A stretch of 64,000 nt of DNA. Source: Podarcis gaigeae (Eukaryota). This document shows positions 40,001 to 43,000 of this stretch, piece by piece (positions within the stretch are counted from its first letter, which is position 1; each line of letters starts with the position of its first letter). The stretch is taken from the NCBI GenBank assembly GCA_964106915.2, contig OZ066918.1; one strand, given 5' to 3'. The position numbers are program-made.

Positions 40001-43000
40001 CTCCCATTTTTAGATTCCCCCCCTAAATATTTTGATTGGTACTCCTGCAAACTTTCGGATTCCTCCACATCTGCTGATATATCCTTCTTGCACATGGATG
40101 TTGCCGTTTTGGCATCCAGAGAATGGGGCTTTTATTAAAGTATATTGATTGATTCAACATTTTAATTTAATTTGAGCTTTGATTCTTACATTATACTGGG
40201 GGTTTTGTCTGAGTGATGCAAACACTGATGAGTCATTATGGCATATACTATCAAATTGTTAAATAAGCCCGTTTTGTTTATCTATTTATTTTTGTGACTG
40301 TTAGTATCATAGTTCTGCAACATTAACTATCAAAACCTGTGATTATGATGAAGCAGTTATTCCAGTTTCTAAGAATAAAACCTGCATGATTTTTGTTCCA
40401 TAATAGGAAAACTATTTGCAGGTGTTTTGTTCTTGCATTTAAAATGGTTTAAAGCATCAGATGCAACATGAAGATGGTTGTTGGAAGAACATAATATATT
40501 TTATCTTAGTGTGAAAAGGAGTACCACTATATGAATCTGCAATCCTTTTTGGAAACAAAAATACTTTGGTACTCTCAATATTCTAGTAGATTAACTTCTG
40601 TTACAACTGACCAGGTAGGATAGAATTATTGAAGTGAAAGTGGCCAAATATTATTGGATATCTCATATTCTAATGTTCTGTAATGTCACTTGGTTCTTTT
40701 CTAGCCTCACCAAGAAATAGACTTAAACCCTAAACAAATAGTAACGGGAGACAGACAGACTTTATACTGTGTTCCAGTGCCTGGAGAGTCGGCATGGGTG
40801 AAAGAAATATCCTTTGCAGTTCATTGACTGTGCTGTATACTGTTATATAGAAAAATATATATGCAATGTGGGGTGGAGAGAAAAAATTGTAGAGTTGGAA
40901 GAGACCACAAGAGTCCTCTAGTCCAACCTCTGCAATGCATGAATCTTTTGCTCAACATAACCCACAACCCTGAGATTAAGAGCCTTATGATCTACCGACT
41001 GAGCTATCTGTTTAAAGTGCCTTGAAATTTGAAGAAAAGGTGCTGTACTGTTCTACAAAGAAAATTGAAGTGTTTTTTTTTTTTAATTATTCCATAAAAA
41101 TGTAGGGTCGGTTTTTCCAGGCATATCTACACAAACAGATGAGTAGCTTTGTACATTTTTTGAATTTTAGAATACTATTAAATTGAAGTCTTCGGAAAAA
41201 TATGACTCCCTCTGGTGGTTAATCCAAAAATAACAAATCTATCAAATCTACTATACATTGTAGATTAACTTTTTGAGGGAGAAAGGCAAGCTTGAATTCA
41301 GCTTTTAAGACCAGTGAAATTACTCAGCTAGTGGAAGTATGTTGGGTAATTACTAATTAGCTGTGGTTAATCTTGTAACTGAGGCTGAATTATATCACTT
41401 CAGTGGAGTTTGTTAGATTAGATAGAAAATGTTCCTAAGGAGTTTCATATGCAAGTAGATGCAAGTTATTTTCACAGTTCTCTATAACCTAAGGCTACAT
41501 GTGGAATATGTTCTATTGTTGTATACATCCCATGAGAGAATGGTGCCTTGTTTCCCTGTCTTGTTTTGTTTTAAATAATTCCATACAATTGAAATACCAG
41601 GTCAAATTATGCTGGGTAGATCACATCAGTAAATGCTATTGTCCTTAACTTGAGATTTAAGCCTATACCAGTGCAAGCCAAGCTCGAGTTTGCCCTTCGA
41701 CATCCTATACACCAAGTCGTCACAAGAGGAGTTATGAGGAAGATGAAGATATGGAGTTGCATCCATCTAAACAGAGAGAGCAACATCTGGGTATCAGCTA
41801 ATTAGACATTGATGGTTTTATTTTAAGTTCCTCTTACACCCAAAAGACACTAAAGTCGTATGGCTGAATAGCTGTTTTATTGAAGCACATTTTTTTTGGT
41901 ACTCTGATCCACTTATTGGGCTGCATCTGTGATTCTCTCTCCACTAGATCAAGTGCTCTTGCACTAATGGACTGATGAGTTTTAAATGTTGCATAGCAGA
42001 GGAATCCATCGCAGCAGCTGTGCTAGTGGAAACTTGTGCAACTGATTGGGCAATCTGTTGTGCAACAAAGTTACCAGCATCTTGCTTATGCATTCTCTTG
42101 CACAACAATATTCTACTGGTGCAAAATATTTCACCAGCAAAACAAGTACTGTATGTTTCTAGTTTTGCACTACATTGGATGCACCCCATTACAACGTTTA
42201 CTTTTTTTACCCTAAACCTCTGGCCTTGTAAAGCTTCTGAAAAACTGGAAGTTTTAATTTCAACTTTGATTGGACTTTGATTAGAAACTGCTTCTTCTAA
42301 CTTGCAGGAAGTGTGCCTGATATCCATGGGAGTGGAGAGCCAAAGCGATTAGAAACAGAAGCATCTGCAAGACATCAGACGATCTCCTTAAATTGCTCAC
42401 CTCCGCTAGATCTAAACTTTCCACTTCCAGGAGAGAAAGGCCCTGCATGTCTTGTGAAGGTAATAAGCATATCAAGCAGTATTAAGCATTACCTCATTTA
42501 CATTTGAAATCCATGGATGAAATATGGAGGCTAAGTTCAACCTCCACTGATGAAAATAATAAGCTTCTGAATGCCCATTACTGGGGAGTCATAAGAGTGA
42601 GCATGTGGCTGCAGTCAGGTGCTGTTTGCAGGCTTCTCATAGACATCTGGGTTGGCTATTGTGAGAACAGGATACTGGGCTAGAGAGCCTCTGGCCTGAT
42701 ACAGCAGGGCTCTTCTGTTCTTAAGAAAACCAAAAGAATGTAATCCTTAAAATAAATCCTGCCATTAAATGCACTGTTGACCTAGGGTATATTATTATAA
42801 TTCAGAACACAGAAGTATGTGTAGCTGCAGTTGTACTCACATAAGCAGACACTTGAGATGTCATGTTCCTTTAATCCTATTTATTCAGTTGAAGTTATGA
42901 AGTTATATGTGCATTCTTTAAAAAAAAAACCATGATCATATATTTTATGTGAGTTGACATAGGTGAAACAGCAGGATACTCATATCTCACACAATAAATG

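What the first reader, a model, noticed from the sequence alone, without database searches (positions are those of the whole stretch)
40807..41660. Minor-spliceosome intron with rare AT-AA termini in MCMBP
Seen: exon 5 ends ...GTG AAA GAA and is followed by ATATCCTTT, a perfect U12 5' site. A perfect U12 branch site TCCTTAAC lies at 41642-41649, with no polypyrimidine tract after it. The conserved protein continues WVKE|AY, which requires the 854-nt intron to end at ...GATTTAA (41660), 12 nt after the branch A. The alternatives fail: AG at 41653-41654 adds ATT TAA (stop), AG at 41660-41661 shifts frame by 1, and AC at 41667-41668 shifts by 8. The nearby GT at 40798 has no in-frame AG partner close by. 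Established: U12 introns are usually GT-AG or AT-AC, the 3' site is set largely by distance from the branch site, and AT-AA is a rare variant. Inference: the competing AG one base downstream could divert transcripts to NMD, making MCMBP output sensitive to minor-spliceosome fidelity. Automated annotation may mis-model this junction. I cannot tell whether AA is ancestral or a lineage-specific change from AC.
Basis: partly seen in the sequence, partly recalled or inferred. Interest (0 to 1): 0.75.

Follow-up and report, generated by a model that had tools for sequence, protein, structure and literature searches.

The report
MCMBP minor intron ending in AA
A lizard or snake copy of the DNA-replication gene MCMBP carries the conserved "minor spliceosome" intron of that gene, but its last base has changed from C to A, a known and tolerated variant that gene-prediction programs often get wrong.

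Summary
The window is squamate, not human, and holds a 16-exon MCMBP gene.

Two RefSeq squamate orthologues align with residue 143 ending at 40806 and residue 144 starting at 41661. No residue is lost or added. Intron 5 therefore runs 40807-41660 (854 nt):
- It starts ATATCCTTT.
- It has TCCTTAAC with the branch A 12 nt from its end.
- It has no pyrimidine tract.
- It ends AA.

The other 14 introns are GT-AG.

The AA is derived:
- The human orthologous intron is published as U12 AT_AC.
- Mis-modelled proteins of Phrynosoma and Naja translate the same spot as ACN.
- 21 of 22 bird read-through models and one close unnamed relative show A+pyrimidine.

AT-AA is the commonest non-canonical minor-intron type, and subtype switches are frequent. 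This is a new member of a known kind.

At least 61 of 117 named orthologue models visibly mis-model this junction.

Competition from the AG one base downstream is plausible and would give a premature stop in exon 7. No transcript data could be reached, so it is untested.

The parts
32163..57289 (+). MCMBP coding region, 16 coding exons
   Evidence: tblastn of the Rhineura floridana and Crotalus tigris RefSeq proteins against the window. Pfam MCM_bind matched on exon ORFs.
40705..40806 (+). Exon 5 ([34 protein letters not shown]), phase 0 at both ends
   Evidence: It is preceded by ...ttttctag. Orthologue residues 110-143 align here and end exactly at 40806.
40798..40799 (+). In-exon GT (TGG|GTGAAA), a decoy donor
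   Evidence: 17 of 117 orthologue models in other species use the equivalent W|GT donor. In the window it has no in-frame AG partner.
40807..40815 (+). U12-type 5' splice site ATATCCTTT
   Evidence: It matches the consensus RTATCCTTT quoted in PMC1635337. 44 of 117 models translate it as I-S-F or similar, so it is conserved in birds, turtles, tuatara, squamates and frogs.
40807..41660 (+). Intron 5, 854 nt, AT-AA termini, U12-type
   Evidence: Boundaries come from the orthologue alignment. It is the only non-GT-AG intron of 15.
41642..41649 (+). U12 branch-point box TCCTTAAC (branch A 41648, or 41647)
   Evidence: The distance to the intron end is 12 nt (or 13), within the optimum of 11-13 nt stated in PMC3584512.
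41659..41660 (+). Intron-terminal AA; 41660 is the derived base (C in relatives)
   Evidence: The window codon AAG (41659-41661, +1 frame) corresponds to ACN in the Phrynosoma and Naja mis-models. In frame 0 the window has TAA where birds and P0057 have TAY.
41660..41661 (+). AG created by the same C-to-A change, 13 nt from the branch A; out-of-frame competitor 3' site
   Evidence: Using it opens the +1 frame through exon 6.
41665..41666 (+). AT that would give an in-frame AT-AT alternative (-6 nt, loses AY), 18 nt from the branch A
41661..41790 (+). Exon 6 ([16 protein letters not shown]...QREQHL + G), 130 nt, donor G|gtatca
42350..42352 (+). TAG reached in exon 7 if the AG at 41660-61 is used (premature stop, codon 15 of exon 7)

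Best explanation
Intron 5 of a squamate MCMBP gene is the orthologue of the U12-type (minor-spliceosome) AT-AC intron of vertebrate MCMBP. In this lineage its last base has changed from C to A. U11/U12 would recognise ATATCCTTT and TCCTTAAC (inferred). The 3' cut falls 12 nt after the branch adenosine at ...TTTAA|GCC. That joins GAA to GCC and gives the conserved WVKE|AYTSASQ. The intron belongs to the tolerated AT-AA subtype. The sequence, the junction position and the derived state of the A are shown here. Actual use of the junction and dependence on the minor spliceosome are inferred.
For: - Sequence and coordinates.
- Gene identity: Pfam MCM_bind on 10 of 10 exon ORFs sent from this gene. 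Exon 5 matches profile positions 76-108 and exon 6 matches 113-151, so nothing sizeable is missing between them.
- Junction: orthologue residues abut exactly at 40806|41661.
- Direct joins: 35 of 117 named models, including 8 of 20 squamate ones, join WVKx directly to xY..SQ.
- All 14 other introns are GT-AG.
- Alternatives: with this 5' site, the only 3' site that keeps every residue is 41660. GT-AG options delete 10-12 conserved residues and use a poor GTCGGC donor.
- Derived state of the A:
  - The human intron is listed as AT_AC in the supplement of PMC8280824.
  - Phrynosoma P0005 and Naja P0021 encode T (ACN) where the window has K (AAG).
  - 21 of 22 bird read-through models have Y or H (A + pyrimidine) as the last intron codon, and so does the close relative P0057.
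  - The unnamed P0136 also has ACN.
- Literature passages:
  - The last base of AT- introns tolerates substitution, and AT-AA has been observed (PMC1635337).
  - There are 3 human and 4 mouse AT-AA introns, and MSH3 is AT-AA in human but AT-AC in mouse (PMC1557818).
  - AT-AA is the commonest non-canonical type (PMC10639083).
  - Human ABHD18 is listed AT_AA, with AA followed by exon G, 11 nt after TTAAC. That is the same geometry as here.
- All 16 exons are intact, at about 89% identity to other squamates. This argues that the gene is functional.
Against: - No transcript or read data for this species could be reached, so the junction is inferred from protein conservation only.
- The AG one base downstream lies at an equally good distance (13 nt). 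AT-AG introns outnumber AT-AA in one survey: 11 against 3 in human (PMC1557818).
- The first residue of exon 6 varies among vertebrates (A, T, S, V, G, I). Protein conservation alone therefore does not exclude a junction that alters that residue.
- The Y/H codons of birds cannot separate AC from AT.
Confidence: 0.85

Rival explanations
1. The A at 41660 is an assembly or sequencing error, or a rare allele caught in the reference individual. The species normally has an ordinary AT-AC intron.
For: Every relative whose terminal base could be inferred has AC or A+pyrimidine. The one exception is a bird with CAR. The window was picked out because it looked odd, and that selection enriches for errors.
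Against: Natural AT-AA minor introns and AT-AC/AT-AA switches between species are well documented. As a prior they are far commoner per intron than a base error at one given position (my estimate). The window has no N and no sign of low quality nearby.
Confidence: 0.06
2. The minor spliceosome mainly uses the AG at 41660-41661 (AT-AG, 13 nt from the branch A). Most transcripts are then frameshifted and degraded, and MCMBP output is strongly reduced or the gene is decaying.
For: The AG lies within the 11-13 nt optimum. AT-AG is the most frequent non-canonical type in PMC1557818. U12 3' site choice is described as error-prone. The frameshift gives a stop at codon 15 of exon 7, with nine exon junctions downstream.
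Against: All 16 exons are open and conserved, with no sign of decay. The review states that AT-AG combinations appear disfavoured. Human ABHD18 has the same AA|G arrangement and is annotated as AT_AA.
Confidence: 0.08
3. The productive junction is the in-frame AT-AT option (the intron ends at 41666), giving a protein that lacks the two residues AY.
For: It is in frame with no stop. AT-AT is a known U12 subtype, with 6 human cases.
Against: The branch distance of 18 nt is outside the 11-13 optimum. The Y is kept in all 35 directly joined orthologue models. The closest orthologues keep AYT.
Confidence: 0.02
4. The intron is removed by the major spliceosome at GT-AG sites, as several automated models assume.
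For: Two in-frame GT-AG pairs exist: 40787|41672 and 40787|41678. Some Naja models use a comparable solution, GESA|ASQARV.
Against: Those pairs delete 10-12 conserved residues. They use a GTCGGC donor and acceptors inside exon 6 with no pyrimidine tract. The perfect U12 motifs and their conservation across tetrapods would be left unexplained.
Confidence: 0.02

Closest known systems
Human MCMBP U12-type intron (listed AT_AC; supplement of PMC8280824; retention in RNPC3 patients, PMC7612377)
   Same: Same gene and same position: after ...KE, before an exon that begins GCCTAT. Same ATATCCTTT donor, and a TTAAC-type branch box close to the 3' end.
   Different: The human intron ends AC, 12 nt after TTAAC. 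The window ends AA, 11 nt after TTAAC. The intron is about 4.1 kb in human and 854 nt here.
Human ABHD18 AT_AA minor intron (supplement file 1 of PMC8280824)
   Same: AT-AA termini, an ATATCCTTT donor, 11 nt between TTAAC and the intron end, and AA followed by an exon G, so an AG lies one base downstream.
   Different: An unrelated gene. The human case is backed by transcripts and the window case is not.
[quoted passage not shown] MSH3 AT-AA (human) / AT-AC (mouse) (PMC1557818 Table 3)
   Same: A single-base difference at the last intron position between orthologues. In that survey 14 of 24 such human-mouse pairs switched.
   Different: Those cases lie within mammals. Here the switch is within squamates, in a gene for which my searches found no such report.
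A-type (AT-AN) minor introns dependent on CENATAC (PMC8280824)
   Same: The intron has AT-AN termini. The human orthologue shows raised retention in CENATAC-mutant patient cells (PSI 0.038 to 0.101, padj 4.7e-6).
   Different: CENATAC dependence was not tested in any reptile.

Membership tests
U12-type (minor-spliceosome) intron | 5' splice site matching RTATCCTTT directly after the exon | tested here: met
   ATATCCTTT lies at 40807-40815. The consensus is as quoted in PMC1635337.
U12-type (minor-spliceosome) intron | Branch-point box TTCCTTRAY close to the 3' end (optimum 11-13 nt) | tested here: met
   TCCTTAAC lies at 41642-41649, and the branch A at 41648 is 12 nt from the intron end. The optimum distance comes from PMC3584512.
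U12-type (minor-spliceosome) intron | No polypyrimidine tract before the 3' splice site | tested here: met
   TTGAGATTTAA lies between the branch box and the 3' end.
U12-type (minor-spliceosome) intron | Orthologous intron is U12-type in other species | tested here: met
   Human MCMBP is listed as U12 AT_AC. The 5' motif is translated as ISF in 44 of 117 models, and VLN (the branch box) is seen in 22 bird read-through models.
U12-type (minor-spliceosome) intron | Splicing depends on U11, U12, U4atac and U6atac | not testable with these tools
   This needs knock-down or in vitro splicing.
AT-AA subtype | Intron begins AT and ends AA at the true exon borders | tested here: met
   The borders are fixed by exact abutment of orthologue residues 143|144 at 40806|41661. 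This is an inference from protein, not from RNA.
AT-AA subtype | Transcript evidence for the junction | not testable with these tools
MCMBP (Pfam MCM_bind, PF09739) | Match to the family profile above the gathering score, collinear along the exons | tested here: met
   9 of 10 exon ORFs score above the 25.6-bit cut-off. Exon 6 alone scores 21.3 bits. Profile positions rise in order from 13 to 547.

The most novel reading that the evidence does not exclude
One C-to-A change both removed the canonical AC and created an AG one base further on. Two 3' sites, at 12 nt and 13 nt from the branch adenosine, would then compete inside the optimal window. A substantial share of MCMBP pre-mRNA in this lineage would be frameshifted and removed by NMD. 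The dosage of an MCM2-7 chaperone would then depend on 3'-site fidelity of the minor spliceosome (ZRSR2- or CENATAC-type factors). A second departure from AC in a bird (Neodrepanis, CAR codon) hints that this particular intron end is repeatedly unstable.
Probability: 0.18. Interest if true: 0.5.

Novelty: new member of a known kind. Interest (0 to 1): 0.3.

Why it matters
The value is practical as well as evolutionary.
- The junction defeats many annotation pipelines. Only 35 of 117 named orthologue models join the two exons correctly. MCMBP proteins in public databases therefore often carry spurious or missing residues at this point.
- The locus gives a dated, polarised example of an AT-AC to AT-AA switch in a conserved minor intron of an essential replication gene.
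- The new 3' end sits next to a frame-shifting AG. That makes it a natural test case for how the minor spliceosome picks its 3' site.
- It does not reveal a new kind of intron or mechanism.

Tried and rejected
**Calls that failed or found nothing**
- the 33-aa exon was too short for the protein search. I resent it as the 40-aa stop-to-stop frame.
I could not see which species share the Rhineura and Hemicordylus clusters, nor whether the window's own protein is annotated.
- a search with the +1-frame ORF across the 3' end, for longer proteins, found nothing.
- the same ORF against cluster representatives gave one unnamed hit, P0136. It is bird-like by my reading and has ACN at the site.
- no Rfam family, no tRNA and no internal repeat in the intron.
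- the other U12-motif matches on the minus strand (20206-20214 and 14038-14045) are not at exon borders. I take them as chance.
- the Atlas gave no usable hit for the 389-aa ORF downstream.

**Papers**
- Not held: Dietrich et al. 2005 and the id I tried for Levine and Durbin 2001. What I say about them comes only from citing passages.
- Searches for 'MCMBP' with 'minor intron', 'MCMBP' with 'U12', and 'U12-type' with 'squamate' found no report of this AT-AA state.

**Rejected reading**
- A TA-AG junction (40807|41662) would be in frame and would give T instead of A. No spliceosome is known to cut one base inside the U12 5' motif (my knowledge).

**Not done**
All searches were exon by exon.
- Structure prediction, fold search and complex prediction were not used because they do not bear on the question.

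Full report
**What is in the sequence**

Searches show the following on the + strand.
- Exon sequence ...GCA TGG GTG AAA GAA ends at 40806.
- It is followed by ATATCCTTT at 40807-40815.
- TCCTTAAC lies at 41642-41649, followed by TTGAGATTTAA up to 41660.
- GCC TAT ACC AGT... begins at 41661.

The window has no N. The intron would be 854 nt, and its end lies 12 nt after A41648.

**Chance**

The two motifs are not enriched in the window.
- ATATCCTTT is found twice, with 0.96 expected.
- TCCTTAAC is found twice, with 2.61 expected.

The second copies, both on the minus strand, do not sit at exon borders. What chance does not give is the placement. One motif lies directly after an exon end and the other 12 nt before the next exon start, and both borders are defined independently by orthologous proteins. 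From the rates I estimate a joint probability near 1e-9.

**Origin of the window**

The window is not human. The best protein matches to its exons are squamate reptiles: Crotalus, Laticauda, Phrynosoma, Varanus, Rhineura, Liasis, Vipera and Ahaetulla. Summed over the tblastn-aligned exons, the closest full-length models are Varanus komodoensis and Rhineura floridana, at about 89% identity.

**Gene and exon model**

I worked exon by exon. Pfam MCM_bind (PF09739) matches all 10 exon ORFs sent from this gene, in collinear profile order. Exon 5 covers profile positions 76-108 and exon 6 covers 113-151.

I ran tblastn of two RefSeq proteins, Rhineura floridana P0014 and Crotalus tigris P0011, against the window. 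It lays out 16 coding exons from 32163 to 57289. In both proteins, residues 110-143 end at 40806 and residues 144-187 start at 41661, with nothing lost or added.

The donor and acceptor contexts of the other 14 introns all show GT and AG at or next to the alignment borders. Intron 5 is the only exception.

I did not build, search or fold a joined, spliced protein.

**Alternative junctions**

I enumerated all donor/acceptor pairs of canonical and known non-canonical types within about 35 nt before or after the exon 5 end and 30 nt before to 50 nt after the exon 6 start. With the U12 5' site, the results were as follows.
- 41660 is the only 3' end that keeps every conserved residue.
- AT at 41665-66 is in frame but removes AY and lies 18 nt from the branch A.
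- AC at 41667-68 shifts the frame by 8.
- AG at 41653-54 runs into TAA.
- AG at 41660-61 shifts the frame by 1.
- The GT at 40798 has no in-frame AG partner.
- The two in-frame GT-AG pairs (40787 with 41672 or 41678) delete 10-12 conserved residues and use a GTCGGC donor.

If the AG at 41660-61 is used, the +1 frame stays open through exon 6. It then stops at codon 15 of exon 7, at 42350-42352. Nine exon junctions lie downstream, so NMD would be expected. That expectation is an inference.

**What orthologue models show**

The two exon searches returned 131 proteins. I left out 14 from unnamed sources, which leaves 117 named models.

| Class of model | Count |
|---|---|
| WVKx joined directly to xY..SQ (32 in the first class plus 3 cartilaginous fishes) | 35 |
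| Continue WVKE-ISF... (or ISL, ISI, ILQ, IVL), a translation of ATA TCC TTT into the intron | 44 |
| Splice from the W\|GT donor and read through the 3' end of the intron | 17 |
| Lack the end of exon 5 | 20 |
| Platypus model, odd at this point | 1 |

By my reading of the names, 8 of the 20 squamate models are joined directly and 12 are not.

Two conclusions follow. The U12 5' site is conserved from frogs to birds. And the junction is mis-modelled in at least 61 of 117 public models. This matches published remarks that U12 and non-canonical introns are often overlooked or wrongly mapped (PMC1635337 passages; PMC1557818 passages).

**Ancestral state**

The mis-models act as accidental translations of the intron end.
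- **+1 frame, squamates.** The window reads ...[12 protein letters not shown], with K = AAG at 41659-41661. Phrynosoma platyrhinos P0005 reads ...ILNLKFT|PIPVQ. Naja naja P0021 reads ...VLNLKLT|FIIVQ. T is ACN, so both end AC, with the same 11-nt spacing after TTAAC.
- **+1 frame, P0136.** An unnamed representative, bird-like by my reading, also has T at this place.
- **Frame 0, birds.** 22 bird models read VLN + 3 residues + X | AY. X is Y in 19, H in 2 and Q in 1. Y and H codons end in A + pyrimidine, which means AC or AT.
- **Frame 0, P0057.** This is an ORF on an unnamed 1911-bp contig whose exon 6 is 100% identical to the window's. It reads KVLNWKIY|AYTSASQ. The window has TAA at that codon.
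- **Human.** The human orthologous intron is listed as don_acc_dinuc AT_AC in the U12 A-type sheet of supplementary file 1 of PMC8280824.

AA is therefore derived, by a C-to-A change at 41660 relative to other squamates. The one bird with Q (Neodrepanis coruscans P0087, codon CAR) points to a second, independent departure from AC, to AA or AG.

**Comparison with what is known**

For each paper I state what I saw.
- PMC1635337 (passages): the donor consensus is RTATCCTTT and the branch consensus is TTCCTTRAY. The last nucleotide is tolerant of substitution in AT- introns, and AT-AA, AT-AG and AT-AT have all been observed.
- PMC3584512 (passages): the optimum branch-to-3' distance is 11-13 nt. 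Non-canonical termini support splicing, often less efficiently. 3' site choice is error-prone. AT-AG appears disfavoured.
- PMC1557818 (Tables 2 and 3, and passages): AT-AA occurs in 3 human, 4 mouse and 1 Arabidopsis introns. 14 of 24 human-mouse pairs with a non-canonical member switched subtype, each by one base. MSH3 is AT-AA in human and AT-AC in mouse.
- PMC10639083 (passages): AT-AA is the most common non-canonical minor-intron type in animals and plants. Non-canonical types make up about 3.8% of orthologous animal minor introns.
- PMC8280824 (passages and supplement): AT-AN 'A-type' introns are less efficiently spliced and depend on CENATAC.
  - The human MCMBP intron shows raised retention in patient cells: PSI 0.038 to 0.101, padj 4.7e-6.
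  - File 1 has 12 AT_AA rows against 228 AT_AC rows.
  - Its ABHD18 AT_AA entry has the same geometry as the window: 11 nt after TTAAC, then AA followed by an exon G.
- PMC7612377 (passage): U12 intron retention in MCMBP was seen in RNPC3 patients.
- Three searches found no paper describing an AT-AA MCMBP intron or U12 introns in squamates.

**Mechanism and rivals**

The most likely mechanism (0.85) is this. The minor spliceosome recognises the two perfect motifs and cuts 12 nt after the branch A at AA. That gives the conserved protein, with somewhat lower efficiency than an AC end.

The rivals are:
- a wrong or rare base at 41660 (0.06);
- dominant use of the AG one base downstream, with frameshift and NMD (0.08);
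- the in-frame AT-AT site (0.02);
- major-spliceosome GT-AG removal (0.02).

The intact, conserved state of all 16 exons argues that enough in-frame mRNA is made. How much goes to the AG site is open.

**What stayed unchecked**
- As a result I could not check the base at 41660 in raw reads, the state of the site in the squamates with correct models, or actual junction usage.
- Dietrich et al. 2005 and Levine and Durbin 2001 could not be read.

**Verdict**

This is a real, correctly read feature. It is a new member of a known kind and of modest interest, with a useful warning for annotation.

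Noticed in passing
window 40806|41661 and orthologue proteins P0003-P0133: Only 35 of 117 named MCMBP protein models from public sources join these two exons correctly. 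44 read through the U12 5' site (WVKE-ISF...), and 17 use an in-exon W|GT donor and translate the branch box as VLN.
   Followed up: yes
P0087 (Neodrepanis coruscans MCMBP model), residues ...VLNAPFQ|AYISASQ: The last intron codon is Q (CAR) where 21 other birds have Y or H. This bird's intron probably ends AA or AG, a second independent departure from AC.
   Followed up: partly
window 41661-41663 and orthologues: The first residue of exon 6 varies among vertebrates: A in most amniotes, T in Sphaerodactylus, Ambystoma and Lepisosteus, S in Latimeria and Polypterus, V in rays, G in amphioxus. The following Y is constant in all the directly joined models.
   Followed up: partly
window about 10884-27946, minus strand: The upstream, head-to-head neighbour has exon ORFs with WWE and DDHD domains and a Pro/Gln-rich first large exon at 27263-27946. 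It is SEC23IP-like; that name is from recall of vertebrate synteny. The stretch 30-34 kb between the two genes is GC-rich (0.51-0.52 against about 0.40), as expected of a shared CpG-island promoter.
   Followed up: partly
window 61431-62600, minus strand: An open frame of 389 aa, convergent with MCMBP, has no Pfam match and no usable Atlas hit. It may be a large terminal exon of the downstream neighbour. From recall of human synteny that could be INPP5F, but this is untested.
   Followed up: partly
window 40894-40928 (inside intron 5): This stretch resembles, from recall, a common squamate SINE-type repeat (GTTGGAAGAGACC...TCTAGTCCAACC). It has one copy in the window. The region 40000-42500 has no tRNA and the window has no Rfam match.
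   Followed up: partly
window 20206-20214 (-), 14038-14045 (-), 40079 (+), 39360 (-): Further matches to the U12 5' or branch motifs. The two on the minus strand at 20206-20214 and 14038-14045 lie inside the neighbouring gene but not at exon borders. I take them as chance, and they serve as an internal control.
   Followed up: yes
window about 9980-10100 and about 24080-24140: Trinucleotide simple repeats show up as long runs of V/S/N (or L/T/Y) and of E/K/R in the ORF listing.
   Followed up: no
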